This document shows positions 19,475 to 38,088 of a DNA stretch of 64,000 bases, piece after piece. Every line of letters begins with the position of its first letter. Position 1 is the first letter of the stretch. A program made the translations under genes and the position numbers. The notes beneath the pieces are model-generated. The model ran no database searches and was not told where the DNA came from. It worked only from the letters and a program-made list of their open reading frames with translations. The stretch comes from Candidatus Harrisonbacteria bacterium (GTDB lineage: Bacteria > Patescibacteriota > Minisyncoccia > UBA6257 > 1-14-0-10-40-38), in assembly GCA_023245035.1 (NCBI GenBank), contig JAHFLD010000004.1, positions 13,496-77,495 of the forward strand. The letters run 5' to 3'.

Positions 19475-19546
19475 GCTTTTACGAATTTACAAATTATTAC
19501 GAAAATACGAATAGAATGCTTGATAAAGAAATTCTGATCTGGCGCT

Positions 19547-20476: not shown

Positions 20477-20750
20477 GTGATTACGAATTTACTAAGGTTA
20501 CGAATTTACGGATTATTACGAATGTACGAATAAATACAAAGATCCAAATGAAATACCACTAGGAATTCTGATGCTTTTTCAATTATAGCATTTTTGTCGT
20601 GATGTCGGTTTTTTTGTCGGTAAATCAAAGAATATTGAGTCTCCAAAAAAACCCACGAATTTAGATCCATGGCCCTCATCGGGGCACCCTTCGATCCCCA
20701 TCAGCTTACAAGGCTGGTGGGGATTTTTTATTCGCTCAAACAAAACGGTT

Positions 20751-22619: not shown

Positions 22620-22696
22620 AGTTCTTGATTGTTTTAATTGTTATAGAAACTTTATTTGCTTTAGATATTGTAATTGTTGGAAGCGTTGCAAATGTT

Positions 22697-23263
22697 TTAT
22701 CCGGCGGTTTCTTTGGGACCTTTGGCAATTTTGACTTGAGACGGGCGGATGACTTTTTCGTGCAATTTCCAGCCGCGGGTAATTTCTTCGGTGATACTTC
22801 CCGGCGGAAGACTGGAGACTTCTTCGGTGACCGCCTCGTGGAAGCTGGGATTAAACGATTCACCGACGGCTTTAATCGGAACTACCCCGTTGCGGCGCAA
22901 TAAGGATTCAAATTGGGATTTAATCATCTCTATTCCTTTTTCGCCGGCTCCGGTGTTAGCTGTCTTGAGTGCCAGATCAAAACTGTCCATGACAACCAAC
23001 AAATCTTTAAGGAGGCTTTCATTGCTGAATTTTATCATCGTCTCGGCGCGGGTCAATTCCTCTTTTTTGTAGTTAATCAGATCGGCTTTCGCGCGGCGCC
23101 AACCGTTTAGATATTCGTCGGCCTCTTTGCGGCAGAGCGCCATTTTGTCTTGAAGCTCGCCGGCGGCTTTTTCGGCTTCGGTCGCGGGGGTTGGCTCCGC
23201 ATCGGGCAATTTGGCCGAGGGTTCCGGCTGGTTTTGATTGGGATTTTTTACAATGTCGTCCAT
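22697..23263 (-). CDS. grpE: Nucleotide exchange factor GrpE
   Basis: GrpE coiled-coil plus C-terminal beta-domain motifs. Upstream is a TTGAAA-17-TATAAT promoter at ~23270-23300 on the minus strand. Confidence 0.85.
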   Translation of the reverse strand: MDDIVKNPNQNQPEPSAKLPDAEPTPATEAEKAAGELQDKMALCRKEADEYLNGWRRAKADLINYKKEELTRAETMIKFSNESLLKDLLVVMDSFDLALKTANTGAGEKGIEMIKSQFESLLRRNGVVPIKAVGESFNPSFHEAVTEEVSSLPPGSITEEITRGWKLHEKVIRPSQVKIAKGPKETAG

Positions 23264-23438
23264 ATGAGCCTATCTATTATATTGTTGCCGTGTCTCTTTT
23301 TCAAGCGCGAGCACAAATGATTTTTTAGAACCGAATAATAAGTCTTGGGGATAACTTAATAGCGCCGAACATCTGGGAGTGATATAATGCTTTTTGTATT
23401 CGTAGCACTAAAGGTCGAGTTGTTAGAGTACTTTTTCT

Positions 23439-23828
23439 ATGAATCCGAAACAATTTCTTCAAATAGGAGGCGTGGTGTTGTTGCTCGTCGGTCTTTTGGG
23501 CTTTTTTGGTTTAATCGGACCGACTTCGGACGCCAGCATCTTCGGCAGCGCTTGGTGGTTTGATAACGGCGAGAACTGGGCGCATACGATTCTGGGCATT
23601 GTGGCCTTGATCGCCGCCGGTGCCTTAAAGAATGCCATGCAACAGAAGAATCTGGTTATCTTGGTGGGTGTGCTTGGCATCTTCTTTGCCGTGTACAACG
23701 TGTTCTCGACTAGCTTCCTAGGCGCGAATTTGGAAAGTCCCGCTGACTTGATTCTGCACTTGGCCGTTGGCGTTTGGGCCCTTTGGGCCGCGATGCGCAA
23801 ACCGGCAATGTCTGGCGGCGCGATGTAG
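23439..23828 (+). CDS. Hypothetical small membrane protein
   Basis: 129 aa with four hydrophobic segments. Confidence 0.45.
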   Translation: MNPKQFLQIGGVVLLLVGLLGFFGLIGPTSDASIFGSAWWFDNGENWAHTILGIVALIAAGALKNAMQQKNLVILVGVLGIFFAVYNVFSTSFLGANLESPADLILHLAVGVWALWAAMRKPAMSGGAM

Positions 23829-23988
23829 TTTGGTTTTCTACTTGGTTATAAAAAAGTTCCCGTGTGAGGCGGGGACTTTTTTGTTGGGCCAACTTTTCAC
23901 CCGAGGCTATTGACGAACAGGGTATTGTCGTGCCATTCTTATTTTGGAAACTTGATAGAGTTCTGGGTCCGAACTGGAGAATCTGCCA

Positions 23989-24152
23989 TGCATGAAGAGT
24001 GTCTTGACCCCATCAAGGAGCGCGCGCGTTGGGTCGCTTTTGAACGCGGCCAGGCTCGATTAAACTTCTGGTTTGGTTTCTGGATCGGGATTTTTGTGGG
24101 TATGACGCTGACCTGTGTTCTTTTTTCTTTTGGCTTTTTTTCGGGGCGCTAG
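23989..24152 (+). CDS. Hypothetical small TM protein
   Basis: A GGAGA RBS lies 7 nt upstream of the ATG at 23989. It has a single TM helix and is followed by a hairpin plus T-run at 24153-24190. Confidence 0.3.
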
Positions 24153-24170
24153 AATTAACCGATCGCCACT

Positions 24171-25346
24171 CTAGAACAGAGTGGCGTTTTTTTTGGCCGG
24201 CTTTTTGGAAATTGATTTATCTAATGCCGAAAGCTTTTCCACGCGCACGCCGAGGAGGCGGATTTTTTTCTTGCGGGGATTTTCGCGCTTGTCCAGAAAG
24301 GGCATAAAAAGGCGGATGGCTTCGGTTTGAATAGTTTCCGCGTCACGGCCGGATTTAGTTAGGGTGTGGGCTCTGGTTTTAGTTTCAAAATCCTCAAAAC
24401 GGACAACGAGGCCCACGGTTTTAAAACTGACTGCTTCCTTTTCCACTTTTTGAGCCACCCGTTCGGCCATTGCTTGAATTTTTTTTAACAAGAACTGCGG
24501 ATCCAGCGTGTCTTGGTCAAAAGTTTCCTGTTCGCCGATGGATTTAATTTCGCGGTCGGTTACAATCGGACTTTCGTCTATGCCCCGCGCCTTCTCGTAC
24601 ATATCGCTTCCCCACTTGCCGAAAAGGGATTCCAGTTTTTCCCGCGATAGGCGGCGCAAGTCGTAGATGCTCTCCACGCGGTGAGTCAGCAGGGTTTCGC
24701 GCGTCTTCGGACCGATGCCCGGAATAACACCGACCGGCTGGGCGTCCAAAAATTCTTGAACTTCGTCCGGCCGAACGATTGTCAGGCCATCGGGTTTTTT
24801 GGTACCGGCGGCGATTTTGGCGATAAGCTTGTTGGGGCCGATGCCGACGCTCGCAGTTAGGCCAAGTTTTTCCTTGAGTTCGGCTTTGATTTTTTTAGCC
24901 GCCGCTTCTGCTTCCAGCCAGCCGGCATTTTCTTCTGCTTTATTTTGTTTTGAATTTTGTCCTTGGGGTTTGCCGCTTTTGAGTTCAAAATAAGCCTCGT
25001 CAACGCTCGCCGGTTCAATTGAGACAGAGTGCGCGGCGATGAGCTCCATAATCCGCGAAGATTTTTGAGCGTAGAGCTTGTGATTCGGTTCCAGAAAAAC
25101 AGCCGGCGGTTTGCCGGCGGCTTTGGCTTTTTCGGCAAGACGCCAGGCGATGGAAATCGGTTGGGCGGAGTGGATGCCGTAGGCGCGAGCCGCGTAGTTG
25201 GCGGTGGAGACGACTCCCCGACCGGTGCCATGCTTGGGATCGGAGCCGATGACGAGCGGCTGACCCTTGAGTTTGGGATTGGCTTGTTCTTCCACCGAGG
25301 CGAAGAAGGCATCCATATCCAGATGAAGTACGATGCGCTGACTCAT
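24171..25346 (-). CDS. dinB: DNA polymerase IV (Y-family)
   Basis: MSQRIVLHLDMDAFFASVEE and Y-family palm/finger motifs. Confidence 0.9.
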   Translation of the reverse strand: MSQRIVLHLDMDAFFASVEEQANPKLKGQPLVIGSDPKHGTGRGVVSTANYAARAYGIHSAQPISIAWRLAEKAKAAGKPPAVFLEPNHKLYAQKSSRIMELIAAHSVSIEPASVDEAYFELKSGKPQGQNSKQNKAEENAGWLEAEAAAKKIKAELKEKLGLTASVGIGPNKLIAKIAAGTKKPDGLTIVRPDEVQEFLDAQPVGVIPGIGPKTRETLLTHRVESIYDLRRLSREKLESLFGKWGSDMYEKARGIDESPIVTDREIKSIGEQETFDQDTLDPQFLLKKIQAMAERVAQKVEKEAVSFKTVGLVVRFEDFETKTRAHTLTKSGRDAETIQTEAIRLFMPFLDKRENPRKKKIRLLGVRVEKLSALDKSISKKPAKKNATLF

Positions 25347-26374: not shown

Positions 26375-26475
26375 ACTAGATACAATACTTCTATTCCGGG
26401 ATAGCCCCGCCTACGCCAAGAGCTTTGGCGGGCAGGTCAGCGATATATTCAACCGCTATCCCGAAATAGAAACAT

Positions 26476-26547
26476 TCCGGGATAGCTCAGCGGTAGAGCG
26501 GCGCGCTGTTAACGCGAAGGTCGCAGGTTCGATCCCTGCTCCCGGAG
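26476..26547 (+). tRNA. tRNA-Asn (anticodon GTT)
   Basis: Hand-folded: acceptor TCCGGGA/TCCCGGA, D-arm GCTC..GAGC, anticodon loop CTGTTAA, T-arm GCAGG-TTCGATC-CCTGC, discriminator G. Confidence 0.85.
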
Positions 26548-28014
26548 CCCGATTGGTTGATTAGCGAAAGTGAGGATCGTACTAAATGGTTCTCGTAGCG
26601 TAAACACTGGCTTTCTGCCGTTTACGATTGAGTTCTGAAGTAGATAGTTGAGAAACTTTCGTTTTTCGGGAACTTCCGAACCTTTAAATATTTCGAGCGC
26701 GTTCTTGGCGAGATTTAGCACAGTAGAAGCGGTATTGTAATAGTTTTCATCGGCTTGGGTATGTTCTTCAAGGTGCAGGTTAATTTCGTACTGTCGTTCT
26801 TTTAGTTCTTTAAACTTCTTGTCATAGTCGTCCTTAGTAATACTACTGTCGAGCAGTAAGTCCATAAGCCGATCTATTTTGACCTGTACTAGGTTGTATT
26901 CCTTCTGAAAGCTATCTACTGCGTTTTCGTGATACGAGGTTTTAGATTCGTTGCTACGCCGCAAACCGGTTACTACTTCATCTATCTTCTCCTGTGGCAT
27001 GGCCTTAAATGCCCCTAGGATGTCGTAGATTGGCTTCAAGAGCTCTCTTTCGGGTATGTATAGCTTTTCTTTGCACAAGTCTTTTTTGGCGTTCGTACAA
27101 CTGTAGTAAATATATTTCCCTTTAGCGGTTTCCGGACTCATAGCGCACCCGCATTTACCACAGCGAAGCAGTCCTCTAAAAATATGAGGCTTGGCCGCAT
27201 ATTGGAACGGCTTCTTGCCCCAACCCTTCCTAATCTCTTGGCACCGATCAAAAAGCTCTTTAGTAATGAGGGGCTGATATTTATGAGGATACAGCTTGCC
27301 CTTGCACCTCATAATGCCGTAATAGAATGGGTTACTTAAAATAAAATTAACCATGCTGAAAGCTAACGGCTTCCCCGTCTTACTTTTCAAACCATCTTTA
27401 GCTATGGCAATCCTTACTGTTTTGCCTGAATGATTTCCCGTGGCGTATAGCTCAAACATTTTGCGGATTAAATGCGCTGTATTTGGATCGGGAATTATAT
27501 CTTTCCTTAATCGCTTCTCGGCGTCCAAAGCGATGTTCTGATAGCCCATCGGCGCTTTGCCCGTCCATTCTCCGTTTCTTCGCTTCTGCTCAAACTTTCT
27601 TTTAACATTATCGCTCAACTGGAGGACATAACTTCTTGCAAACATAACAGCCATATCCCAACGGAGCAATTCCGAACTGTTTGAGTTTTGGCCTAAAACT
27701 AAATTTTCACGATAGAAATGAATTTCGAGCTTGCCAACTTTCCTAAGCTCATCTAACAGCACCGATTCTTTAAAGCTTCTTTGGAGCCGGTCAACAGTAT
27801 CAACCACGAGAGCGATCGGCTCCTTGGAGTCTTTTATGACTTCAACTACTTCTTGAAAGCGCTCTCTGTCGCCGGTAGTCGAGGATTCTTCAATTTCGTA
27901 TGTTTTCCAAACTGAAAGCCCTTTGAATTTCACATAATCAGAAACACGGACTACCTGCGCTTCATTTGAGTCCTGTTTTTTGTCTGATACACGGGCTAAG
28001 ATGATGGCTTTCAT
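26509..28014 (-). CDS. Large serine recombinase (resolvase N-domain, recombinase domain, zinc ribbon)
   Basis: N-terminus MKAIILARVSDKKQ carries the catalytic Ser. A CGKCGCAMSPE...YYSCTN zinc ribbon follows. The 3' end overlaps the tRNA-Asn antisense. Confidence 0.85.
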   Translation of the reverse strand: MKAIILARVSDKKQDSNEAQVVRVSDYVKFKGLSVWKTYEIEESSTTGDRERFQEVVEVIKDSKEPIALVVDTVDRLQRSFKESVLLDELRKVGKLEIHFYRENLVLGQNSNSSELLRWDMAVMFARSYVLQLSDNVKRKFEQKRRNGEWTGKAPMGYQNIALDAEKRLRKDIIPDPNTAHLIRKMFELYATGNHSGKTVRIAIAKDGLKSKTGKPLAFSMVNFILSNPFYYGIMRCKGKLYPHKYQPLITKELFDRCQEIRKGWGKKPFQYAAKPHIFRGLLRCGKCGCAMSPETAKGKYIYYSCTNAKKDLCKEKLYIPERELLKPIYDILGAFKAMPQEKIDEVVTGLRRSNESKTSYHENAVDSFQKEYNLVQVKIDRLMDLLLDSSITKDDYDKKFKELKERQYEINLHLEEHTQADENYYNTASTVLNLAKNALEIFKGSEVPEKRKFLNYLLQNSIVNGRKPVFTLREPFSTILTFANQPIGLREQGSNLRPSR

Positions 28015-28017
28015 AAT

Positions 28018-31000
28018 TTATTCGGAGAACTTACCGCCAGAAATGTCGAAAAATCTCTCAAAGAAGCTCGTCAGTTTACTTAGAACACTTTCACGTTTTT
28101 TGGTACGCTCACCGGTGGGAGAAAATCGAGATACGGCCGGTAAAACCTTAGTGATTGCTGTACCCGTCGTTGCCAAATTACCGTCACGAAACGCATTTCG
28201 TACAAACCTATACGTTGCGTCGTGATCAAGATTTTCGCTCACAATAATTTGTTCGAGTTCTTCAACCTTTTTCCCTTCAACAAACTTCTGCCAGTCGTCA
28301 TCAACCACGGAGTGTATATCAAGCGAAGAGATAAACTGGTTAATGAGGTCTTTCTTGTTGCGTAGCTCAACACTTGAGTCTATTGCTTTGTTAATATCAA
28401 CTAAAATCTCACGATTTTTTGTGTGGTCTTCGTGGTATTTTTTAATGAGCCCTAGTACGTAGTCGATATTTATCTCTACCTGTTTAATAAGCTCCATCTC
28501 AAACACCAAGTCATCGTTGATATTCTCTTTAGCATCCTCAACTCCCTTGCGAAATTCGTTATAAAGATCAATATATGCACTGTGATAATCTTGAATATCT
28601 CGATCCGATAAAATCTCATTTCCAATAAACTCGTCAAAGGTCGTCAGGATATTACGCACGCGCAAAATTCCGCCATAGAGCTTAATGAAGTCTTTTTGGT
28701 TTTGCTCACCTATAATTCTTTCCCCGACGGGGAACTTTTCCAAAAGCTCCGCGACGAGGCTTGCATAGCCACGTATTTGCTTCTCGCCATCTTTATAGCC
28801 GTGATAATACTCAGCATATGATTTGAGTAGAACGATGCCACTCGCTTCCTTATCACCAAAGAGCGCTATGGACTCATTGGTCGCTTTTTCTAGGTTGCGG
28901 AAACAAACAATGTTACCGAAAGTTTTTACGCTGTTTAAAATACGATTCGTACGCGAAAATGCTTGTAGAAGTCCGTGCAATCTTAGATTTTTGTCTACCC
29001 ATAGCGTATTGAGTGTTGTTGCATCAAAACCAGTCAAAAACATATTGACCACGATAAGAATATCGATCTCACGATCTTTTGCGCGCTGACTGACATCTTT
29101 ATAGTAATTTTGAAATTTATCAGATGACGTATCGTAGGATGTGCCAAACATCGCATTGTAATCAGCAATAGCTCCATCCAAAAAATCTCTTGAACTCACA
29201 TCGAGTCCAGTCGTATCCTCTGAGTTTTCATCTATCATTCCATCCGCATCCTCGTCGTTCACTCCAAAGCTATAAATTGTTGCTACTTTGAGTCGCTTAT
29301 CACTTGGTACGTCCGCAAGTTGTTTTTTGAACTCTGCATAATACTTCTTTGCAACATCAATAGATGAAACTGCAAAAATTGAGTTAAAGCCAGCGAGTCT
29401 CCGATCTTTCAACTTATAAAAACTATTGCGCTTGGTCTTTTGATCAAAATGCTCCCGAATGTAGCCAACAATATTTGCCAATCGTTCAGGTGCGGCAAGC
29501 ACTGCCTCACGATCAATATCGCTCACTTTCTTATCTTCAATATTCTCAGCTTCGCGGACGGTAGAAATATAATCAACCTTAAACGGTAAAACATTTTTAT
29601 CAGCGATTGCGTCCACGATAGTGTACGTGTGCAATTTTTCGCCAAAGGCTTGCTCGGTAGTCTTCAAATCGAGTCGCCCACCAGAAGACGCATTCATCGC
29701 AAAAATCGGCGTGCCGGTAAAGCCAAAGAGATGATAGCTTTTAAATGTCTTGGTAATAGCGGCGTGCATGTCGCCGAACTGTGAGCGGTGACATTCGTCA
29801 AAGATAAGCACGACGTGGCCATCAAAAATCGTATGCCCAGAATTTCGTCCAATAAAACGATCGAGTTTCTGAATAGTTGTGATGATGATACGTGCGTTCG
29901 GATTCTCTAGCTGACGCTTCAAAATCGCCGTACTAACATTGCTATTGGCCGCACCTTTTTCAAACTTGTCATATTCTCGCATCGTCTGGTAGTCCAGGTC
30001 TTTACGGTCAACAATAAAAACCACCTTATCTACATACGGCAATTTGCTCACCAGCTGTGCCGTCTTGAAGCTGGTCAAAGTTTTTCCTGATCCTGTCGTG
30101 TGCCAAATATACCCGCCAGCCTCTACCGTGCCGAGCTTTTTGTAGTTTGTACTTACTTCGATGCGACTCAGTATTCGCTCTGTTGCTACTATCTGATACG
30201 GTCGCATCACCAAGAGCTGTTTGTCGGTAGTAAACACGCAATAACGGGTCAAAATATTCAAAAGTGTGTGCTTCGCAAAAAAAGTCTTGGCAAAGTCCGT
30301 TAAGTCTGTAATGGGTCGGTTGGTAGAATCTGCCCACCAACTCGTAAACTCAAAACTATTACTCGCCCGTTTACCTTTTTTCGCTGTACCGGTACTGACT
30401 TCTTTTATGTGCTCTTTACGTGTCGTATTGCTGTAATACTTTGTGTGTGTGCCGTTTGAAATAATAAACAGTTGCACATATTCAAAAAGTCCTGCTGAAG
30501 CAAAGAAGCTTTCCCGCTGATAACGATTGATCTGATTGAAAGCTTCTTGAATAGCAACCCCGCGACGTTTAAGCTCTACATGCACCAACGGCAGGCCGTT
30601 TACTAGCACCGTCACATCATAGCGGTTGGCACGCTTTCCCTCATCCGTCGCGTATTGGTTGATAACCTGCAGACTGTTATCGTGAATATTGTCCTTTTTG
30701 AGGAGGTAGACATTTTTTACCGTACCGTCCTCGCGCGTCAGGTTCTTGATGTGGTCTTCTTGAATGGTTGCTGTCTTTTCTTCAACGCTTTGATTCGGGT
30801 TAGCAATCTCACTTGCAAAGAAATGCTCCCATTCCGTATCGGTGAATGTAAAACCATTAAGCTTCTCTAATTGCAGACGGAGGTTCAATGTCAAATCAGC
30901 CTCAGAGGTGATAGGTAGATACTCATACGCTTGCTTTGTAAGTTGTTCTATAAATACCTTCTCTAAATTCGCTTCACTTTGATACTGTGTGACACGCTGA

Positions 31001-31077
31001 ATATTTGGCGTGTATTGTGCCACTACGGTGCTTTGTGGATTTTCCGCGACGAGATTGTATTTATTGTTACTTGGCAT
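28018..31077 (-). CDS. hsdR: Type I restriction enzyme R subunit
   Basis: 1019 aa with the helicase motif TGSGKT, DEAH-like motif FDECHRS, and a nuclease region near the N-terminus. Confidence 0.9.
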   Translation of the reverse strand: MPSNNKYNLVAENPQSTVVAQYTPNIQRVTQYQSEANLEKVFIEQLTKQAYEYLPITSEADLTLNLRLQLEKLNGFTFTDTEWEHFFASEIANPNQSVEEKTATIQEDHIKNLTREDGTVKNVYLLKKDNIHDNSLQVINQYATDEGKRANRYDVTVLVNGLPLVHVELKRRGVAIQEAFNQINRYQRESFFASAGLFEYVQLFIISNGTHTKYYSNTTRKEHIKEVSTGTAKKGKRASNSFEFTSWWADSTNRPITDLTDFAKTFFAKHTLLNILTRYCVFTTDKQLLVMRPYQIVATERILSRIEVSTNYKKLGTVEAGGYIWHTTGSGKTLTSFKTAQLVSKLPYVDKVVFIVDRKDLDYQTMREYDKFEKGAANSNVSTAILKRQLENPNARIIITTIQKLDRFIGRNSGHTIFDGHVVLIFDECHRSQFGDMHAAITKTFKSYHLFGFTGTPIFAMNASSGGRLDLKTTEQAFGEKLHTYTIVDAIADKNVLPFKVDYISTVREAENIEDKKVSDIDREAVLAAPERLANIVGYIREHFDQKTKRNSFYKLKDRRLAGFNSIFAVSSIDVAKKYYAEFKKQLADVPSDKRLKVATIYSFGVNDEDADGMIDENSEDTTGLDVSSRDFLDGAIADYNAMFGTSYDTSSDKFQNYYKDVSQRAKDREIDILIVVNMFLTGFDATTLNTLWVDKNLRLHGLLQAFSRTNRILNSVKTFGNIVCFRNLEKATNESIALFGDKEASGIVLLKSYAEYYHGYKDGEKQIRGYASLVAELLEKFPVGERIIGEQNQKDFIKLYGGILRVRNILTTFDEFIGNEILSDRDIQDYHSAYIDLYNEFRKGVEDAKENINDDLVFEMELIKQVEINIDYVLGLIKKYHEDHTKNREILVDINKAIDSSVELRNKKDLINQFISSLDIHSVVDDDWQKFVEGKKVEELEQIIVSENLDHDATYRFVRNAFRDGNLATTGTAITKVLPAVSRFSPTGERTKKRESVLSKLTSFFERFFDISGGKFSE

Positions 31078-32284
31078 ATTCGTTGAAAGCTAAAAGTTTA
31101 CCCCGATAGTATTCATACTGTGATCTACGAGCAGAGAGTTCTGCTGGCAAACCTATCGAAATATCACTTACAAGCGCATTGAACTTATCCAAAATCGTCA
31201 CTATACGCTCTTGTTCTGCGAGGGGTGGAATTGAGACCTCCACATTTGCCATGACATTACTCATAAGTTTGGGATTGCCCATTCCAGCACTGACATATTT
31301 TTTAGCAACAGTTGCCAGTATGTACGCAAGAAATTTTGTATTTACATCTTCAACTTTGACTTTCAAAAGCCCGCAAACATTTGTAAGACTAAACTTTCCG
31401 TTACGATAGAAAATAGAACCGGCGTTTGCCCCGTCAGTTGTCCAAGTCACATACTCACCGTCATAATCGTAAGTACTGATGTATCCAAAGACACCATCAT
31501 CTGTTGTTTGCGATGAGTAGACTGGGTATTCGCCTCTATTTGTTTTTAGATAATCTTTTGACATAACTCTACCTCGGTTAATTTGACATATCTCCGATAT
31601 CGTGGCGCGTCTTACTCTCTCTCTCTCGGTTCCTTCCTTAAATGTCAGAAGTTGTGAGCGATAATGCTCGTACTGCTTCTTTCTCGCTTCTAGCTCCGCT
31701 TCTAGCTCCGCTTCTAGCTCCGTAAAACTATTAAGAGTTTTGATAATATTTTCTTGTACTGCAAGTGGTGGTAGGGGTATTTTAATTTTTGCAAAACGCT
31801 TTTTTGAGACATTAAATCTCGTCACTCCACTGGCAGTTTTTGCAATCTGTTTTCTCATCTGTTCATCCCTAAACAAATATTTAGAGAACTCGGGCAACAA
31901 CAAGTTATTGTCATTCAGGCGAAAGCCAAAACAAAAACTATTTAAATACAACGGCTCACTAATTTTCTTTGTTAAAACAGAGGACATCCCACACTCGTCT
32001 GGCGTTTCTGATGAGCCTGTAAATAACACATCACCATATTCGATCCTGTTTTGATTTTCGTCTTTGCCTACTTTTACAAAGACATCGATATCGGTATTGA
32101 CCGCGATGTTAGAGTATATATTCATGTAGGTAACAAATTTTGCGTTACCATTGCTAAAATCATCTTTGCTTTTGCCTGACAGCCCACCATAAAACTCGCC
32201 TAGTTCTCCCAACTCCTTAAACTCAACCCCATTGGGGCAGAGCTTAGCAATCAGTTTTTCAATTTTGCTCATATGTTTAATCAT
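31067..32284 (-). CDS. hsdS: Type I restriction-modification specificity subunit
   Basis: Two target-recognition domains separated by a central (ELEA)3 coiled-coil spacer. It overlaps hsdM and hsdR by a few nt, in operon fashion. Confidence 0.85.
   Translation of the reverse strand: MIKHMSKIEKLIAKLCPNGVEFKELGELGEFYGGLSGKSKDDFSNGNAKFVTYMNIYSNIAVNTDIDVFVKVGKDENQNRIEYGDVLFTGSSETPDECGMSSVLTKKISEPLYLNSFCFGFRLNDNNLLLPEFSKYLFRDEQMRKQIAKTASGVTRFNVSKKRFAKIKIPLPPLAVQENIIKTLNSFTELEAELEAELEARKKQYEHYRSQLLTFKEGTERERVRRATISEICQINRGRVMSKDYLKTNRGEYPVYSSQTTDDGVFGYISTYDYDGEYVTWTTDGANAGSIFYRNGKFSLTNVCGLLKVKVEDVNTKFLAYILATVAKKYVSAGMGNPKLMSNVMANVEVSIPPLAEQERIVTILDKFNALVSDISIGLPAELSARRSQYEYYRGKLLAFNEYAK
31686..31721. 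repeat. Perfect 12-bp x3 tandem repeat (CTTCTAGCTCCG) in the hsdS central conserved region
   Basis: Encodes ELEAELEAELEA in-frame on the minus strand. Confidence 0.9.
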
Positions 32285-33867
32285 TTTGTTCCTTCAATAT
32301 CGCTAACGATCTCGTCAATCGAGGTGCGGAGTTCCTGTTGCCGTGCCACGATGCCCGCTATTCTCGTGTTCAGCTCCGTAATGTCTACCACCTCGCGAGT
32401 GTCTTCCGCCATAACATAGCTTGAAACGGCAATATTGTAGTCATTTTCGGCAACGGCTTTATTGTCCACGAGTTTGGCAAAATACTTGGCATCTTTGCGA
32501 GTACTGAATGCTTCCAAAATCTTGGAGCGATTCGTCTCGCTCAATTTATTTTTGTTGCCACCACGAGTAAATTCGACAGAGGCGTCGATAAAAAGTGTTT
32601 TGTTATCTTTCTTGCTCTTTTTAAGCACAATGATACAAGTGGCTATGGTAGTACCAAAAAAGAGATCAGGCGGTAGCTGGATAACTGTATCAACGTAGTT
32701 GTTGTCTATCAGATACTTGCGAATTTTCTGCTCTGCACCACCACGATAGAGGACGCCCGGAAATTCAACGATTGCGGCAGTGCCACTGGTAGAAAGCCAG
32801 CTGAGCATGTGCATAGTAAAAGCTAGGTCAGCTTTACTCTTTGGAGCGAGTACTCCCGCAGGAGAGAAGCGTGGATCATTGATGAGGAGAGGGTTAGCAT
32901 CGCCCTCCCAGTGGATGGAATATGGCGGGTTGGAGACGATAGCGTCAAACGGTTCATCGTCCCAATGCTTTGGATCGGTGAGCGTATCGCCGTGAGCAAT
33001 ATCAAAATTGTTGTAGTTTATATCGTGCAAGAACATGTTGATACGACATAAGTTGTAGGTGGTCAGGTTAATTTCCTGTCCGAAAAAACCTAGACGAACA
33101 TTTTCTTTGCCGAGCACTTTGGCGAATTTAAGGAGTAGTGAGCCAGAACCGCAGGCTGGATCATAGACCTTATTTACTTCTTTCTTGCCGACTGTGGTAA
33201 TTTCGGCCAAAAGTTCACTGACTTCCTGTGGAGTGTAGAACTCGCCTCCAGACTTACCAGCGTTTGAGGCGTACATAGTCATGAGGAACTCATACGCATC
33301 GCCGAAAGCGTCTATTGTATTGTCGGAGTAGTTGCCAAGGCGAAGGTCGCCAATAGATTCAAATAGTTTTGCGAGTTTTTGATTTCGTTTTTCTACCGTA
33401 CTTCCTAGTTTATTGGAGTTGACATCAAGGTCATCAAACAAGCCCTTGATATCATCTTCACTGTTCGCACCTTTTGCAGAATTTTCAATATTACGAAAGA
33501 CTGCTGTAAGGGTTTCGTTGAGATTAGCGTCATTGCGAGCATTTTTCCTGACATTCACAAAAAGCTCACTTGGCAAAATGTAAAAACCTTTTTCTTTGAC
33601 GGTATCAGCTCGACCGAACTCAGCTTCTTTGTTGGAAAGTGTAGCGTAATCAAAATCTTTTTTAGCCGCGCGGCGTTCATCAGCATTTATATAGTTGGTC
33701 AAATTTTCACTGATGAAGCGATAAAAGAGTATACCGAGTACATACTGCTTGAAGTCCCAACCATCTACGCTTCCACGTAAATCATTAGCAATCTGCCAAA
33801 TAGCACGATGCAGCTCGGCACGCTCCTGCTCTTTGGTTGTATTTAGATGTGCTTCTTTGTTTGGCAT
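32281..33867 (-). CDS. hsdM: Type I R-M N6-adenine DNA methyltransferase subunit
   Basis: NPPY motif (VSNPPYSIHW) and an AdoMet motif FYTPQEV...DPACGSGS. Confidence 0.9.
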   Translation of the reverse strand: MPNKEAHLNTTKEQERAELHRAIWQIANDLRGSVDGWDFKQYVLGILFYRFISENLTNYINADERRAAKKDFDYATLSNKEAEFGRADTVKEKGFYILPSELFVNVRKNARNDANLNETLTAVFRNIENSAKGANSEDDIKGLFDDLDVNSNKLGSTVEKRNQKLAKLFESIGDLRLGNYSDNTIDAFGDAYEFLMTMYASNAGKSGGEFYTPQEVSELLAEITTVGKKEVNKVYDPACGSGSLLLKFAKVLGKENVRLGFFGQEINLTTYNLCRINMFLHDINYNNFDIAHGDTLTDPKHWDDEPFDAIVSNPPYSIHWEGDANPLLINDPRFSPAGVLAPKSKADLAFTMHMLSWLSTSGTAAIVEFPGVLYRGGAEQKIRKYLIDNNYVDTVIQLPPDLFFGTTIATCIIVLKKSKKDNKTLFIDASVEFTRGGNKNKLSETNRSKILEAFSTRKDAKYFAKLVDNKAVAENDYNIAVSSYVMAEDTREVVDITELNTRIAGIVARQQELRTSIDEIVSDIEGTK

Positions 33868-33869
33868 AA

Positions 33870-34052
33870 CTATTTTGTTCTTACTTTGCTCATAAACCGC
33901 TCAAACTCGGATCGCTTGATGCGAAACTCTTTGCCTATCTTATGGGCAACTAATTTACCCGCACCTATATAGCGGTAAATTGTCATCACATTTACTTTAA
34001 GCTTCCCGGCTAATTCCTTTGCTGTATAAAATTCATCTTTCATAGTTAGCAT
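33870..34052 (-). CDS. Excisionase/AlpA-family HTH DNA-binding protein
   Basis: 60 aa with the HTH YTAKELAGKLKVNVMTIYRYIGAGKLVAHKIG. Confidence 0.6.
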   Translation of the reverse strand: MLTMKDEFYTAKELAGKLKVNVMTIYRYIGAGKLVAHKIGKEFRIKRSEFERFMSKVRTK

Positions 34053-34057
34053 AGTTA

Positions 34058-35335
34058 TTATACTTTACTTTTGTTTACAGGCGAAGTGGATAACTTTTCG
34101 GTCTTATAACTTGCGAATATCTTGATTGCTTCTTCGACTTGAGCAACCCAACTATGGCATTGTTTTTGCTTGACCTTTTTATTGAGCTTCTTAGTGTCGT
34201 CTCTTATCCGGTACCATGTGCGATCGACGCATATGGGCTTGAGTAGATGCCTTAACTCTCGTGTGCCACCTTCTTCCTTACATAGAGCTTTTAGTCCCAC
34301 TAGATATATGGCTTCTTTGGGTTTTATCTTTTTGTTTGCTTTAAGAAGCTCTTCGAGATGCTTTTTCGGACTGCCCTTTAAATCAAAGATAAAGAGGTTC
34401 TCTTCGGCTATCATCTTTTCCCAGTAGAGCTTTACGATTTTTTGGCATATATCCTTTTTAAATATTTCTTGGAAGCTAGGACTTTCCTTGTAGCCAATTT
34501 CTTTTAAAACTTCACCAAGTTTTGTCTTATGTGCAAGACGAACTTCTATACGTAGTATTTCCATTGGCTTCCCTATCTTCTGAATGGCTTCAAAGAGGGA
34601 TAACTGCCGCGCCGGTTGATCGCCATCAATTGACCGGCCGTTCGCTTGGCTTAGATCGGCAATCTTGTCGTAGATGACTAACTGATGGCGCTTGGCATAC
34701 ATCTGCAATGACTGCCCGTCGTTCCGGAAGGTTACTTTTGCTAAATCAAGTTTCTTTTTTAGGTTTATCTTGTGTAGCTCTTTAATCACGAAGCTAGATG
34801 TATATCCATCTTTAAGTTCTATATTTTTGGAAGGATGAAGGGCCGATACTTTGGCGTTCATTATCGCCTCTTCGGAGGTAGCAACACCCATTGCGTTAAG
34901 GTCACTTTGGAGCTTGATAACTACTCTTTTGAAGTCAGACTCTTCGAGCTCATCGACATTCGTGCCGAATAACAGCTTCGGAGCAGAAAACTCAATCTTT
35001 AATGGTATTTCTATGCCCTTGTTGGTCGCCCGTTTAGTGATGGTTAGGCGTGGCCTCTTAATGCCTATCTTCTCCTCTGCGGGTGTCGTGTTATTCACAC
35101 ATTTTAGACCATTAGCACCATATCCTCTTAGTAGGTTGGCTGATGGTTTAAACCTTTCCGGTTGTAAAATTTGATAACTATTTTGGGAAATATTGAGGAT
35201 TATCGTATCGAACATTTTAATTTTTATTAGATTTATAATTTTGAGGATTTTGACGTTTGTCCTCTTCGAGAAGCAGGGCAAAAAAGCCGATAAGGTTTTG
35301 GTTAGCTTCATAATTGGCAAGGGCTTCAAATCCAC
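34058..35335 (-). CDS. Putative replication-initiation (Rep_trans-like) protein. Start uncertain.
   Basis: SLQMYAKRHQLVIYDKIADL resembles the Y...xYDK motif of Rep_trans/RstA-type initiators. The assignment is tentative. Confidence 0.35.
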   Translation of the reverse strand: MDLKPLPIMKLTKTLSAFLPCFSKRTNVKILKIINLIKIKMFDTIILNISQNSYQILQPERFKPSANLLRGYGANGLKCVNNTTPAEEKIGIKRPRLTITKRATNKGIEIPLKIEFSAPKLLFGTNVDELEESDFKRVVIKLQSDLNAMGVATSEEAIMNAKVSALHPSKNIELKDGYTSSFVIKELHKINLKKKLDLAKVTFRNDGQSLQMYAKRHQLVIYDKIADLSQANGRSIDGDQPARQLSLFEAIQKIGKPMEILRIEVRLAHKTKLGEVLKEIGYKESPSFQEIFKKDICQKIVKLYWEKMIAEENLFIFDLKGSPKKHLEELLKANKKIKPKEAIYLVGLKALCKEEGGTRELRHLLKPICVDRTWYRIRDDTKKLNKKVKQKQCHSWVAQVEEAIKIFASYKTEKLSTSPVNKSKV

Positions 35336-35516
35336 CTTTTTCCACCAATTCTTTTTCGGGTTTTTTATTTCGCGTTCTCACGCCCTGAATAATAAATAAC
35401 CCTCTAAGCTCCACGTGGCCTAGAGGGTTCGAGAGGGTTTTCTTGTAAAATGATAAAAAAAGACCACCGAATTTAAGGTAGTTTTAAAAGCCCTCTAAGC
35501 CGATGCAACCCACGGT

Positions 35517-36755
35517 TTAATTATCCCTCTTGGCGCTACCTACAAACATCCTGATATTCTTTTTCTGTTCATCAAATTCAAATTTTAAACGACTATCTAG
35601 CTTTTTGATTTTTTGTATTTCCTTAATTGCCCATACTATTTTGGCAATTTTTGCGCTTAGAGCTATGTGGATATTCTCAAAATCTGGATTCTCTTTATCT
35701 TTTTTGATTCTTATATCTTCAAAGACTACTTCAACACTCTTAAAGACATTCAGGGGGTCGCTAAGGGCTTTAATCAGCTTAAATTGTCTTGTGTCTGCTT
35801 TTGCAATCGATATTTTTGGGCCCTCTTTATAGAATTTTAAATATCCCCCGCCATCGATTATGACGGTAAATGGCTTTATTTTTGGATTAAGAGATTCTTC
35901 TTGTTCGTCCTTTACTTGTTCTACAATGTTTTTTGAATTTGTATTTTTTTCCATTTTTGCCTCGGTTTCTTCACGATCTAGTTCATCAAGCATACCTAGA
36001 TGGAATCTTTGTAGAGACAGTTTTGGGTCACCCGATAGAAGCATGTTATGTCTTTCGCCTCTTTTTAGAGCCTCAACGGCTTCTATATAAAAACCCCGAC
36101 TAAATTTCGTAGCTCCAATCCCCGATGAATCAGGGGCATTTATATCAGCAATGTAGTATTCAAAAGCTTTATATGTCTTCACTAGATTTTCTAATGCGCC
36201 CCATATCGTAATATCTTTTGCTCTTTCCATCCTTTTATTTATTTCTTTAACCTCTTCATATGATTCGCTGATCTTAAAATCTCTTATAGTATCGGCGCCC
36301 ATGGGGTCTTTGCCAAAAATTACATATTTTTCAATAAAAGAAACCTTACCAAGTCCGTAAAGCATTACAATGATTTCCTCAATCGCATCGTACAGCGATC
36401 CAGTTACTCCGCGAGAAGAAATGATCGCTCCTTTTTTATAGAGATCGTAGCTCTCAAAAAGACTAAAAAGCGGGTTATGGATAAATTTCTCCTTTTTAGT
36501 TTTTGCTGTGATGTCATCGTAGACCGCTTCTATTTCTTTAAAGGCTTTGACTTTAAGTTTTTCTATATTCTTTAGGTCATTTACATGATCTTTATCTATA
36601 TTCCCGGCTATCCTATTTAATACAGGATGGGCGCTTATATAGCTGATATAACCATATATCCAAGCTGAATACTGATAGTTGACTTGAGTATCAACGAAGG
36701 TCTTATATCTCCGATCTAGTCCTTCTTTTAGTTTTGGAATGCTTAAATCGTCCAT
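35517..36755 (-). CDS. Hypothetical 412-aa island cargo protein, no recognisable domain
   Basis: A long, low-GC ORF that I could not place in a known family. Confidence 0.5.
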   Translation of the reverse strand: MDDLSIPKLKEGLDRRYKTFVDTQVNYQYSAWIYGYISYISAHPVLNRIAGNIDKDHVNDLKNIEKLKVKAFKEIEAVYDDITAKTKKEKFIHNPLFSLFESYDLYKKGAIISSRGVTGSLYDAIEEIIVMLYGLGKVSFIEKYVIFGKDPMGADTIRDFKISESYEEVKEINKRMERAKDITIWGALENLVKTYKAFEYYIADINAPDSSGIGATKFSRGFYIEAVEALKRGERHNMLLSGDPKLSLQRFHLGMLDELDREETEAKMEKNTNSKNIVEQVKDEQEESLNPKIKPFTVIIDGGGYLKFYKEGPKISIAKADTRQFKLIKALSDPLNVFKSVEVVFEDIRIKKDKENPDFENIHIALSAKIAKIVWAIKEIQKIKKLDSRLKFEFDEQKKNIRMFVGSAKRDN

Positions 36756-36906
36756 TATTCTTTACTTTAGTTTACATTCCATGATTATTCAATTGGTAAT
36801 GTGGGCTATTTTAAAAGCCTTGAATCGTTACAGGTAATGAGGTTGACTTTGATGTTACTAACAGGCTACCATGTCAATCCGAAGCAGTAAGAATTATAAT
36901 AGGCAT

Positions 36907-37302
36907 ATGGACATATTTCCTGTTTTAGGGGTGGTTTATAAATCCAAAGATGGAAATTGGCGTGGTTTTTGTTATCCGTATGATGTCGCCTGCAATACCA
37001 TGACCAAGGAAGAAGCTATGAAAAACTTAATGGAGTTAATGGAGACTTATGAAGAGAATTTAAGTAACTATAACAGTCCGAGACATCTCATAGTAAAAAA
37101 ACTTTCCGAGAAAGAGGATCAAGATGTTTTCAAGAAAATATGGCCGGAAGTTTCTAGAAAGTTTGCTGAACGATTAAGGGTGGCATCTAATCCAACAAAA
37201 TTCTCTGATCGTCTCTCGCAAGATACAAAGTTCACTGTGGATTCTGGCAAGAGCACGGTTTCTTATTCAAATCGACCTTTAGCGCTTGCTTCTTCAGAAT
37301 AA
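36907..37302 (+). CDS. HicB-like (UPF0150) antitoxin-family protein
   Basis: MDIFPVLGVVYKSKDGNWRGFCYPYDVACNTMTKEEAMKNLMELMETYEE matches the HicB/UPF0150 N-terminal pattern. The start is taken at the internal Met of ORF 36871. Confidence 0.45.
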   Translation: MDIFPVLGVVYKSKDGNWRGFCYPYDVACNTMTKEEAMKNLMELMETYEENLSNYNSPRHLIVKKLSEKEDQDVFKKIWPEVSRKFAERLRVASNPTKFSDRLSQDTKFTVDSGKSTVSYSNRPLALASSE

Positions 37303-37585
37303 TGTGGCGATACCAACAAAAATAGACTTCGGAGATTTCTTTAAAGCAGTTCGCCTTATTTCAGTTAAAAAAGGATTCACCTGCAAACCTTATAATGGCA
37401 GTAAGGGTTCTGCTATATGCTTTAACTTCTTTAGAGCAGGAGAAGAAGAACCATTTGGCGTTTTTTGTGTGCACGAAGACAAGCATAGAAAAGTCATATA
37501 TTCCGATGATCTCAAGAAAGCCTGTAAGCAATTAGGGGTGACTAAGGAAGAATTTGAAGTTTTCATTAAAAATGGCTTTAAGTAG
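37286..37585 (+). CDS. HicA/YcfA-like putative toxin
   Basis: G-F-x...GSKGS...H...K-x-I...LKKACKQLGVTKEEF pattern resembles HicA family mRNA interferases. It overlaps the upstream HicB-like gene by 17 nt. Confidence 0.4.
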   Translation: MLLQNNVAIPTKIDFGDFFKAVRLISVKKGFTCKPYNGSKGSAICFNFFRAGEEEPFGVFCVHEDKHRKVIYSDDLKKACKQLGVTKEEFEVFIKNGFK

Positions 37586-37664
37586 AAAAAGAAACGAGGT
37601 TTAAATAGCTAAGTTCCGTTCTTATTTGTCTCCAATTCAGGGTTCTAAACCTATCCAACCACGG

Positions 37665-37691
37665 GAGCCAAGTTGGATGATTATCGAAGGT
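37665..37691. repeat. Putative attR. Imperfect direct repeat of tRNA-Asn 3' end and downstream sequence (26544-26570).
   Basis: GGAGCCAAGTTGGATGATTATCGAAGG against GGAGCCCGATTGGTTGATTAGCGAAAG, 20/27 identical. Confidence 0.4.
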
Positions 37692-37788
37692 AAAAATACT
37701 ACAGGTTGTGCTGTAGTATAATATTTTTATGCGCTAGTGCTTTGGCGGATGGGTTATAAATTAAAATGTGTCATAATTATGGGAGAGC

Positions 37789-38088
37789 ATGTTCAAGGAA
37801 TTCGCTAAATTTTTAAAAGAGTTCAATATTGTTTCTTTGGCGGTGGGTTTTGTGATGGGTACGGCCTCAACCTCGCTCGTGAGTTCTATGGTTAAAGACG
37901 TGCTCATGCCCATTGCCGCGCCACTTTTGGGCGCGGAAGCGTGGAGAGAGGCCGTTTGGCATATTGGTCCCGTGACTATTGCTATTGGCTCGTTTGCGGC
38001 CGAGCTTTTTAATTTTCTGATCTTAGCTTTGATTGTTTTTGTTATTGTCAAAAAAATTATCAAGACGGAGACGGTAAAAAAATATTAA
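37789..38088 (+). CDS. mscL: Large-conductance mechanosensitive channel MscL
   Basis: LKEFNIVSLAVGFVMGTA...VKDVLMPI conserved TM1 and loop region. Confidence 0.85.
   Translation: MFKEFAKFLKEFNIVSLAVGFVMGTASTSLVSSMVKDVLMPIAAPLLGAEAWREAVWHIGPVTIAIGSFAAELFNFLILALIVFVIVKKIIKTETVKKY

What the first reader, a model, noticed from the sequence alone, without database searches (positions are those of the whole stretch)
31686..31721. Perfect 12-bp x3 tandem repeat encoding (ELEA)3 in the hsdS central spacer
This is a classic specificity switch. In EcoR124I versus EcoR124II, a change from 2 to 3 copies of a 12-bp repeat (TAEL) in the hsdS central conserved region lengthens the non-specific spacer of the recognition sequence by 1 bp. 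The repeat is prone to slipped-strand mispairing. Here three perfect CTTCTAGCTCCG units sit exactly between the two target-recognition domains.
Basis: partly seen in the sequence, partly recalled or inferred. Interest (0 to 1): 0.6.

Follow-up and report, generated by a model that had tools for sequence, protein, structure and literature searches.

The report
Spacer-ruler repeat in a restriction specificity gene
The perfect 12-base x3 repeat is real and is the well-known four-amino-acid "ruler" repeat of Type IC restriction enzymes, which sets how far apart the two halves of the DNA target lie; this is an ordinary new example, and a second (GA)n repeat beside it may be the faster switch.

Summary
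Confirmed. Window 31685..31722 holds 3.2 perfect copies of a 12-nt unit. On the minus strand, 31685..31720 encode (ELEA)3, residues 189-200 of a 405-aa HsdS in an hsdM-hsdS-hsdR Type IC operon. The operon lies on a low-GC island next to tRNA-Asn in a Patescibacteria-like genome.

The repeat sits in the first long helix between the two target-recognition domains. It aligns without gaps to the TAEL repeat region of EcoR124 HsdS. In helix length, three ELEA units equal the two-TAEL form (EcoR124I, N6), not EcoR124II.

Among 126 related alleles the unit count is 1, 2, 3, 4 or 5 (1/6/64/54/1 alleles). Alleles with the same domain pair carry 3 or 4 units; L005 is 93-94% identical with four.

Units are identical within an allele but differ between alleles at synonymous sites, which own-gene codon usage does not explain. 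This indicates repeat turnover by slippage or unequal crossing-over.

Switching within this population and its effect on the methylated motif are untested.

It is out of frame in 9 of 19 relatives, with the downstream domain still intact, as with the polyG tract of NgoAV.

This is a new member of a known kind.

The parts
31685..31720 (-). Three perfect 12-nt units GAGCTAGAAGCG encoding (ELEA)3, HsdS residues 189-200. The DNA periodicity extends to 31722.
31067..32284 (-). hsdS, 405 aa, Type I specificity subunit with two target-recognition domains
   Evidence: Pfam Methylase_S, two stretches, E=5e-50. Best solved relative is EcoR124 HsdS 7bst_A, E=2.7e-26.
31790..32284 (-). Target-recognition domain 1 (about residues 1-165)
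   Evidence: Region-wise identities to relatives; AF2 model
31646..31765 (-). Central conserved helix (residues 174-213) that contains the repeat and links TRD1 to TRD2
   Evidence: AF2 model helix H174-213; gapless alignment to the EcoR124 central region
31615..31627 (-). (GA)6.5 dinucleotide tract GAGAGAGAGAGAG at the junction of central helix and TRD2 (encodes ERER). In frame here.
   Evidence: Only occurrence in the window, 0 expected. Length polymorphism and frame changes in relatives.
31250..31612 (-). Target-recognition domain 2 (about residues 225-345)
31094..31222 (-). Distal conserved helix (residues 355-397), the antiparallel partner of the central helix. Its length does not vary among relatives.
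   Evidence: AF2 helix H355-397; F-to-R length 17 in 77 of 82 alleles whatever the repeat number
32281..33867 (-). hsdM, 528 aa, N6-adenine methyltransferase; overlaps the hsdS start by 4 nt
   Evidence: Pfam N6_Mtase and HsdM_N; TIGR00497 hsdM 763 bits
28018..31077 (-). hsdR, 1019 aa, with the EcoR124_C C-terminal domain (Type IC hallmark); overlaps the hsdS end by 11 nt
   Evidence: Pfam EcoR124_C 2.8e-67, T1R_D3-like, SWI2_SNF2, HSDR_N; TIGR00348
26509..28014 (-). Large serine recombinase at the edge of the low-GC island that carries the operon (context)
   Evidence: Pfam Resolvase, Recombinase, Zn_ribbon_recom; GC profile
26475..26550 (+). tRNA-Asn(GTT). Its 3' part is overlapped by the end of the recombinase gene; probable integration site (context).

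Best explanation
The repeat is the tetra-amino-acid repeat characteristic of Type IC HsdS specificity subunits. It forms about three turns of the first of two long antiparallel helices that hold the two target-recognition domains apart, so it acts as a molecular ruler. Adding or losing one 12-nt unit (4 residues, about one helical turn) changes that helix while the partner helix stays fixed. In EcoR124I/II and NgoAV this shifts the non-specific gap of the bipartite target by 1 bp.

Because the units are identical in DNA, unit number changes by slipped-strand mispairing or unequal crossing-over. This has happened repeatedly in the family, mostly toggling between 3 and 4 units. The window allele has 3 units, the same helix length as EcoR124I (N6-type spacing). 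Its closest full-length relative, L005, has 4 (N7-type).

Shown here: location, homology, copy-number polymorphism on the same recognition-domain pair, and DNA-level homogenisation of the units. Inferred: the effect on gap length, and the mutational mechanism. Not shown: switching on the timescale of a population.
For: - Type IC operon: Pfam and NCBIfam assignments.
- Homology of the repeat region: FTELEAELEAELEARKKQY aligns without gaps to EcoR124 [19 protein letters not shown], and the distal helix also aligns without gaps.
- Structure: the AF2 model puts residues 189-200 inside helix 174-213, paired with helix 355-397.
- Copy-number spread: 126 non-redundant related alleles have 1/2/3/4/5 units in 1/6/64/54/1 cases.
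- Same domain pair, different counts: window (3), L006 (3; 93%/93% TRD identity), L005 (4; 94%/93%), L004 (3; 83%/87%), L002 (4; 80%/84%).
- Closest TRD1 match: L009 shares 97% TRD1 and the very same unit GAGCTAGAAGCG, but has four copies.
- Homogenised units: synonymous differences per unit pair are 0.36 within alleles against 1.92 between alleles (0 of 5000 permutations reach this). Own-gene codon usage predicts 2.6 differences and 0.75 alleles with all units identical, against 54 of 92 observed.
- Scatter on a tree: at least 16 copy-number changes on a neighbour-joining tree of 46 alleles with a homologous TRD1.
- Uncompensated change: the partner helix length is constant at 17 residues for both 3- and 4-unit alleles.
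- Literature: EcoR124I N6 (2 TAEL) versus EcoR124II N7 (3 TAEL), arising by unequal crossing-over (PMC3874165). NgoAV with 1 LEAT gives GACN6TGC and with 2 LEAT gives GACN7TGC (PMC6789123). Tetra-amino-acid repeats are called characteristic of Type IC HsdS (PMC10030836).
Against: - No reads or methylation data were available, so neither heterogeneity in this population nor the recognition sequence is known.
- Three units is a short array.
- The nearest alleles with a different count differ by 9-11% in DNA over the operon.
- The only other copy of this exact allele (L001) also has three units.
- The tree-based count of changes uses a TRD1 tree, and recombination between alleles could inflate it.
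- Gap length also depends on the geometry of each recognition domain, so the 'N6' prediction is only by analogy.
Confidence: 0.85

Rival explanations
1. Fast contingency locus: the 12-nt array changes length at high frequency within the living population, so that cells with N5, N6 and N7 specificities coexist (true phase variation).
For: In Mycoplasma pneumoniae the homologous 12-bp AELS/TELS repeat varies between strains and even between passages of one strain (PMC4537597). Units here are perfectly identical, which is the best substrate for slippage. Copy number is scattered across the TRD1 tree.
Against: The most variable M. pneumoniae genes carry long arrays (up to 33 units); here there are 3. 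No allele closer than about 90% DNA identity with another count was found. L001 is identical with 3 units. Counts are strongly concentrated at 3 and 4, as expected if most other lengths are selected against.
Confidence: 0.2
2. The operative rapid switch of this hsdS is the (GA)n tract at 31615..31627, not the 12-nt repeat. A change of 2 nt puts TRD2 out of frame and yields a half-size HsdS (TRD1 plus central helix) that dimerises and recognises a symmetric target. The 12-nt repeat only sets the gap for whichever form is made.
For: It is the only such tract in 64 kb, with 0 expected by chance. In 19 related alleles the tract is 8-25 nt long. Ten alleles are in frame and nine out of frame, with a stop 21-38 codons after RKKQY. 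In the seven out-of-frame alleles inspected before one search stopped on an error (L028, L034, L045, L048, L064, L066 and one more in the list printed), TRD2 and the distal helix remain open for 176-199 codons in the other frame; L074, L136 and L146 were classified only. Open downstream frames mean the frameshifts are recent or reversible. GA[5] or longer meets the published length criterion for phase-variable dinucleotide repeats, and such repeats in hsdS always lie between the two TRDs (PMC7383803). In NgoAV, a polyG frameshift gives a truncated active HsdS recognising GCAN8TGC (PMC6789123 and PMC9577141).
Against: In the window the tract is in frame, and no read-level heterogeneity is available. 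Activity of a truncated HsdS in this lineage is untested. Some out-of-frame consensus sequences could be dead genes or assembly errors.
Confidence: 0.5
3. Static structural periodicity: ELEAELEAELEA is simply what this coiled-coil helix needs, and the DNA identity is a by-product of codon preference, with no role for repeat-number change.
For: The amino-acid motif is conserved across phyla.
Against: This gene uses GAA and GAG equally (14:13), CTA for only 3 of 33 Leu codons outside the repeat, and GCG for 3 of 21 Ala codons outside the repeat. P(three identical units) is about 3e-4. Across the family, 54 of 92 alleles have all units identical against 0.75 expected. Unit number varies from 1 to 5.
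Confidence: 0.05
4. Assembly artefact: a mis-assembled or collapsed repeat.
For: None specific.
Against: The array is 38 bp, well within one read. The reading frame is intact. The same sequence occurs on an ENA metagenome contig (L001), though whether that assembly is independent of the window's is not known. Homologous arrays occur in more than 100 contigs from many projects.
Confidence: 0.02

Closest known systems
[quoted passage not shown]
   Same: Same subunit, same helix and same position, with a gapless alignment of the repeat and its RKKQY..LL.FKEG flank. Both have a 12-nt in-frame unit encoding 4 residues, and natural alleles differ by one unit on identical recognition domains. The HsdR carries the EcoR124_C domain.
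   Different: The unit is ELEA rather than TAEL. Here the whole 13-residue segment is built of perfect units, so '3 units' equals the helix length of the '2-repeat' EcoR124I. The host is an uncultured Patescibacteria-like bacterium and the operon is chromosomal on an island rather than on a plasmid. The effect on gap length has not been measured.
NgoAV (Type IC, Neisseria gonorrhoeae): LEAT repeats plus a downstream polyG tract in hsdS
   Same: The same two-part architecture: a variable tetra-amino-acid repeat in the central helix that sets the gap (N6 versus N7), followed by a frameshift-prone simple repeat before TRD2 that yields full-length or half-size HsdS (PMC6789123; PMC9577141). Relatives of the window gene show both kinds of variation.
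   Different: The frameshift tract is a GA dinucleotide run rather than polyG. The unit is ELEA rather than LEAT. No methylome is available, and the window allele is currently full length.
Mycoplasma pneumoniae hsdS genes with 12-bp AELS/TELS tandem repeats
   Same: A 12-bp repeat encoding 4 residues in the first dimerisation helix, with copy number polymorphic among strains (PMC4537597; PMC8836594).
   Different: The mycoplasma arrays reach 16-33 units and change between passages. Here, and in 118 of 126 relatives, there are only 3 or 4 units.
EcoDXXI and EcoPrrI (Type IC, three TAEL repeats, N7 gap)
   Same: Members of the same family with the repeat in the same helix. Engineered changes in repeat number changed the gap as predicted (PMC3874165).
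   Different: They correspond in helix length to the 4-unit relatives (for example L005), not to the window allele.

Membership tests
Type IC restriction-modification system (EcoR124I family) | HsdR with the family-specific C-terminal domain (Pfam EcoR124_C, PF12008) | tested here: met
   PF12008 E=2.8e-67 over residues 749-1009 of the 1019-aa HsdR
Type IC restriction-modification system (EcoR124I family) | Gene order hsdM-hsdS-hsdR (the Type IC order, from my own knowledge of the family) | tested here: met
   On the minus strand: hsdM 33867..32281, hsdS 32284..31067, hsdR 31077..28018, with overlapping junctions
Type IC restriction-modification system (EcoR124I family) | HsdS conserved regions similar to EcoR124 HsdS, with tandem tetra-amino-acid repeats in the central conserved region | tested here: met
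   Best PDB match is EcoR124 HsdS, E=2.7e-26. Central and distal conserved regions align without gaps, and (ELEA)3 lies at the TAEL position. The feature is described as characteristic of Type IC in PMC10030836.
Type IC restriction-modification system (EcoR124I family) | Subunit complementation or antibody cross-reaction with family members (the classical definition) | not testable with these tools
   Requires experiments
Repeat-number specificity switch of the EcoR124I/II kind | In-frame 12-nt tandem repeat in the helix between the two recognition domains | tested here: met
Repeat-number specificity switch of the EcoR124I/II kind | Alleles with the same two recognition domains but different unit numbers | tested here: met
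   Window and L006 have 3 units; L005 has 4 units at 93-94% TRD identity. L004 (3) versus L002 (4) is a second pair.
Repeat-number specificity switch of the EcoR124I/II kind | Gap of the recognition sequence changes by 1 bp per unit | not testable with these tools
   Needs methylome data or in-vitro assays. Inferred from EcoR124I/II and NgoAV.
Repeat-number specificity switch of the EcoR124I/II kind | Interconversion observed within one lineage or population | not tested
   No reads available. The nearest variants are about 10% diverged in DNA.
SSR phase-variable hsdS (NgoAV type: full-length versus truncated HsdS) | Simple repeat with a unit not divisible by 3, located between the two recognition domains, of a length meeting published criteria | tested here: met
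   (GA)6.5 at 31615..31627. The criterion of GA[5] or longer, and the location rule, are in PMC7383803.
SSR phase-variable hsdS (NgoAV type: full-length versus truncated HsdS) | Tract-length variants that shift the frame while the downstream domain stays intact | tested here: met
   9 of 19 related alleles are out of frame. In those inspected before one search stopped on an error, 176-199 codons remain open in the other frame.
SSR phase-variable hsdS (NgoAV type: full-length versus truncated HsdS) | The truncated HsdS is active with a different (symmetric) specificity | not testable with these tools
   Known for EcoR124I delta50, EcoDXXI deltaC and NgoAV; not known for this protein

The most novel reading that the evidence does not exclude
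In this Patescibacteria lineage one hsdS gene carries two independent mutable 'dials'. The first is a 12-nt ruler repeat, mostly 3 or 4 units, which sets the gap length. The second is a (GA)n frameshift tract that chooses between a full-length asymmetric HsdS and a half-size symmetric one. Together they would let a tiny-genome episymbiont generate four or more restriction/methylation specificities from one recognition-domain pair. If both switch at population timescales, this would be the first phase-variable methylation system described in the candidate phyla radiation. A text search of the held library found no paper combining Patescibacteria, phase-variable and restriction-modification. The family-wide 3/4 toggling would also fill the gap left by surveys that excluded repeats with units divisible by three (PMC7383803).
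Probability: 0.3. Interest if true: 0.5.

Novelty: new member of a known kind. Interest (0 to 1): 0.3.

Why it matters
For this locus, the repeat count allows a prediction: EcoR124I-like spacing for the window allele, and one base pair more for its 4-unit relative L005. This can be tested directly with long-read methylomes of the source community. More broadly, the comparison shows that Type IC specificity genes across many phyla keep their ruler repeat homogenised in DNA and toggle mostly between 3 and 4 units. It also shows that a clade found mainly in groundwater and sediment metagenomes couples this ruler with a GA frameshift tract, as in gonococcal NgoAV. That is a useful annotation rule and suggests that uncultured small-genome bacteria diversify their phage defence by contingency repeats. 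It does not reveal a new mechanism.

Tried and rejected
- A megablast of hsdS against PLSDB plasmids found nothing, so no named close relative could be used.
- Rfam found only the two tRNAs in the window; there is no RNA element at the repeat.
- I looked for island attachment repeats. There is no second copy of the tRNA-Asn 3' end in the window at up to 3 mismatches, and no convincing long direct repeat between 26.3 and 39 kb. Only an 18-nt partial copy of the tRNA 5' end lies 81 nt upstream. The far island border therefore remains defined by GC content only.
- The two ORFs upstream of hsdM gave no Pfam, NCBIfam or meaningful PADLOC match.
- Codon bias as an explanation for the DNA identity was tested and rejected.
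- The plus-strand ORF 31740..32054, which starts just beyond the repeat, was treated as a shadow of hsdS on the grounds that hsdS fully accounts for the region; no search was run on it.
- The script stopped on an error after eight loci. The values it had already printed were used, and L074, L136 and L146 rest alone.
- A rapid-switching claim could not be evaluated: no reads were available, and the collections gave no allele closer than about 90% DNA identity with another unit count.

Full report
**1. The observation**

The window has a perfect period-12 tandem repeat at 31685..31722: 3.2 copies, 100% matches, no indels. It lies inside the minus-strand ORF 31067..32284 (405 aa). In that frame, 31685..31720 read GAG CTA GAA GCG three times, giving ELEA-ELEA-ELEA at residues 189-200. 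This is immaterial. The identical gene with three units also occurs on an ENA metagenome contig (L001), although I could not establish that this assembly is independent of the window's.

**2. What the gene is**

- The ORF has two Methylase_S domains.
- Its start overlaps the end of an hsdM (32281..33867; N6_Mtase, HsdM_N; TIGR00497 at 763 bits).
- Its end overlaps the start of an hsdR (28018..31077) carrying HSDR_N, SWI2/SNF2, T1R_D3-like and the EcoR124_C domain.
- Gene order M-S-R, the EcoR124_C domain, and EcoR124 HsdS as best solved relative (7bst_A, E=2.7e-26) place the system in Type IC.

The operon sits in an 11-kb stretch of low G+C (0.38-0.45 against about 0.49 on either side). This stretch begins at a tRNA-Asn (26475..26550) whose 3' part is overlapped by the end of a large serine recombinase gene (26509..28014). 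It is therefore an integrated island.

The flanking chromosome encodes DnaK, DnaJ, a Y-family polymerase and MscL. The DnaK is 75-77% identical to proteins named from Harrisonbacteria, Paceibacteria and other Patescibacteria. The host is probably a CPR bacterium.

**3. Where the repeat sits in the protein**

HMMER aligns FTELEAELEAELEARKKQYEHYRSQLLTFKEG to EcoR124 [32 protein letters not shown] without a gap. The distal conserved region also aligns without a gap. An AlphaFold2 model (mean pLDDT 77) puts residues 189-200 inside a 40-residue helix (174-213) that leads from TRD1 to TRD2. A second long helix (355-397) follows TRD2. This is the arrangement that the review by Loenen et al. describes as an antiparallel coiled coil whose length sets the separation of the two recognition domains (PMC3874165).

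The solved chain shows two TAEL units flanked by degenerate partial copies (TAL- and -NM). Thirteen residues therefore lie between the conserved F and RKKQY, exactly as in the window protein. Three ELEA units thus correspond in helix length to the two-TAEL EcoR124I (GAA N6 RTCG), not to the three-TAEL EcoR124II (N7).

**4. Comparison with relatives**

I fetched 160 related hsdS loci from metagenomes and from named genomes and extracted the segment between the conserved Q..I...L..F anchor and RKKQY.

*Copy-number distribution.* Among 126 non-redundant alleles the segment is 5, 9, 13, 17 or 21 residues long, that is 1, 2, 3, 4 or 5 units. The counts are 1, 6, 64, 54 and 1. The length of the partner helix segment is 17 residues in 77 of 82 alleles, whether the central helix has 3 or 4 units. 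The change is therefore uncompensated, as in EcoR124I/II.

*Same domains, different counts.* The same pair of recognition domains occurs with different unit numbers:

| Allele | Units | TRD1 identity | TRD2 identity |
|---|---|---|---|
| window | 3 | – | – |
| L006 | 3 | 93% | 93% |
| L005 | 4 | 94% | 93% |
| L004 | 3 | 83% | 87% |
| L002/L003 | 4 | 80% | 84% |

L009 has 97% TRD1 identity and exactly the same DNA unit GAGCTAGAAGCG, but four copies. Its local alignment to the window shows a clean 12-nt indel in otherwise about 95% identical flanks.

*Scatter on a tree.* On a neighbour-joining tree of 46 alleles with a homologous TRD1, unit number needs at least 16 changes by Fitch parsimony. 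Recombination between alleles could inflate this count.

**5. Evidence that the DNA repeat itself turns over**

Units are usually identical within an allele but differ between alleles at synonymous positions (for example GAGCTAGAAGCG, GAGCTGGAAGCA, GAGTTAGAGGCA, GAACTAGAGGCT).

- For ELEA units, the mean difference is 0.36 nt per unit pair within alleles and 1.92 between alleles. None of 5000 permutations reached the observed value.
- With each gene's own codon usage outside the repeat as the null, 2.6 differences are expected, and 0.75 alleles should have all units identical. Fifty-four of 92 do.
- For the window gene, the probability of three identical units is about 3e-4.

This is concerted evolution. 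It is what repeated gain and loss of units by slippage or unequal crossing-over produces. The search patterns used to collect the loci act at the protein level, so they do not select for DNA identity.

**6. What is and is not established**

- Established: the repeat is the Type IC ruler repeat. Its number varies on a constant recognition-domain background. The units are being homogenised.
- Inferred from EcoR124I/II and NgoAV (1 LEAT gives GACN6TGC, 2 LEAT give GACN7TGC; PMC6789123): each unit changes the target gap by 1 bp. The window enzyme should then have EcoR124I-like spacing and L005 one base more.
- Not established: that the count changes within this population. The nearest alleles with another count are 9-11% diverged in DNA across the operon. 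The array is short compared with the unstable M. pneumoniae arrays of up to 33 units (PMC4537597). The strong concentration at 3 and 4 units suggests that selection allows few lengths.

**7.

Fifty-seven nucleotides downstream of the 12-nt array, at the junction of the central helix and TRD2, lies GAGAGAGAGAGAG (minus strand, 31615..31627; it encodes ERER). It is the only such tract in the window, with none expected by chance.

In 19 related alleles that carry a tract at this position, its length ranges from 8 to 25 nt:

- Ten are in frame (13, 19 or 25 nt in the window's context).
- Nine are out of frame, among them L028 (23 nt), L034 (11), L045 (21), L048 (15), L074 (17) and L136 (15).
- The out-of-frame alleles have a stop 21-38 codons after RKKQY.
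- In those inspected before the script stopped on an error, TRD2 and the distal helix remain open for 176-199 codons in another frame. L074, L136 and L146 rest alone.

Intact downstream domains mean the frameshifts are recent or reversible. This matches the published picture of simple repeats in hsdS, which always lie between the two recognition domains and give full-length or truncated HsdS (PMC7383803). It also matches NgoAV, where a polyG tract truncates HsdS at about residue 201-208 and changes the motif to GCAN8TGC. The window allele is in frame. I rate this tract as the more likely fast switch (0.5), with the 12-nt array setting the gap for either form.

**8. Comparison with the known, and verdict**

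Tandem tetra-amino-acid repeats (TAEL, LEAT, SEAL, TSEL) are described as characteristic of Type IC HsdS (PMC10030836). ELEA is simply another spelling, and in my sample it is the commonest. The two-repeat architecture has a direct precedent in NgoAV.

The finding is therefore a correct recognition of a known device in a new host: a new member of a known kind. Two things go modestly beyond the literature I could read:

- the family-wide 3/4 bimodality with DNA-level homogenisation, given that surveys excluded repeats with units divisible by three;
- the occurrence of both dials in Patescibacteria-associated alleles, for which a text search found no report.

Interest is 0.3.

Noticed in passing
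window 31615..31627 (minus strand), inside hsdS: A (GA)6.5 dinucleotide tract lies between the central helix and TRD2 and is the only such tract in the window. In 19 related alleles its length is 8-25 nt, and 9 are frameshifted. The downstream TRD2 frame is still open in those checked, as with the polyG switch of NgoAV.
   Followed up: yes
window 26475..28014 and 26500..38000: The restriction operon lies on a low-GC island of about 11 kb (0.38-0.45 against about 0.49). The island starts at tRNA-Asn(GTT), whose 3' 42 nt are overlapped by the end of a 501-aa large serine recombinase gene. An 18-nt partial copy of the tRNA 5' end sits at 26393..26410. No second copy of the tRNA 3' end was found, so the far border (about 37.6-37.8 kb, before mscL at 37789) is unresolved.
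   Followed up: partly
window 34058..35335 (-) and 35517..36755 (-): Two ORFs of 425 and 412 aa lie immediately upstream of hsdM on the island. Neither has a Pfam, NCBIfam or meaningful PADLOC match. They may be accessory defence or island genes.
   Followed up: partly
L009, L014, L016, L017 (same TRD1, other TRD2); L026, L038, L042, L035 (same TRD2, other TRD1): Recognition domains are shuffled independently among relatives: TRD1 is 84-97% identical with an unrelated TRD2, and the reverse also occurs. This is the usual domain swapping of Type I specificity genes.
   Followed up: partly
proteins P0004, P0006-P0009, P0034, P0037, P0038 and others (590-636 aa): Many homologues are about 600 aa long with two or three RKKQY-type conserved helices. 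They look like 'extended' HsdS proteins with a third recognition domain, as reported for Mannheimia and Fusobacterium.
   Followed up: no
L066 (JACCDP011089897.1), central regions at protein positions 171 and 586 in two frames: One 2.4-kb contig carries two hsdS central regions with the same flank (QREIVRVLDLF). One has 3 and the other 4 ELEA units, and one is followed by a 15-nt GA tract that breaks the frame.
   Followed up: no
L044 / L097 (Hainich groundwater Patescibacteria MAG): An allele with a single ELEA unit (TELEA then RKKQY), the shortest central helix seen. Its TRD1 is homologous to the window's.
   Followed up: no
window 18386..25346: The housekeeping context (dnaJ, a 309-aa ORF with no Pfam hit, dnaK, a dinB-like Y-family polymerase) and DnaK similarity (75-77% to Harrisonbacteria and Paceibacteria; best unnamed hit 94%) indicate a Patescibacteria (CPR) host.
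   Followed up: partly
window 38090..40630 (+): An 846-aa protein combines purple-acid-phosphatase-N/fibronectin-III-like domains with two peptidoglycan-binding domains, just outside the island.
   Followed up: no
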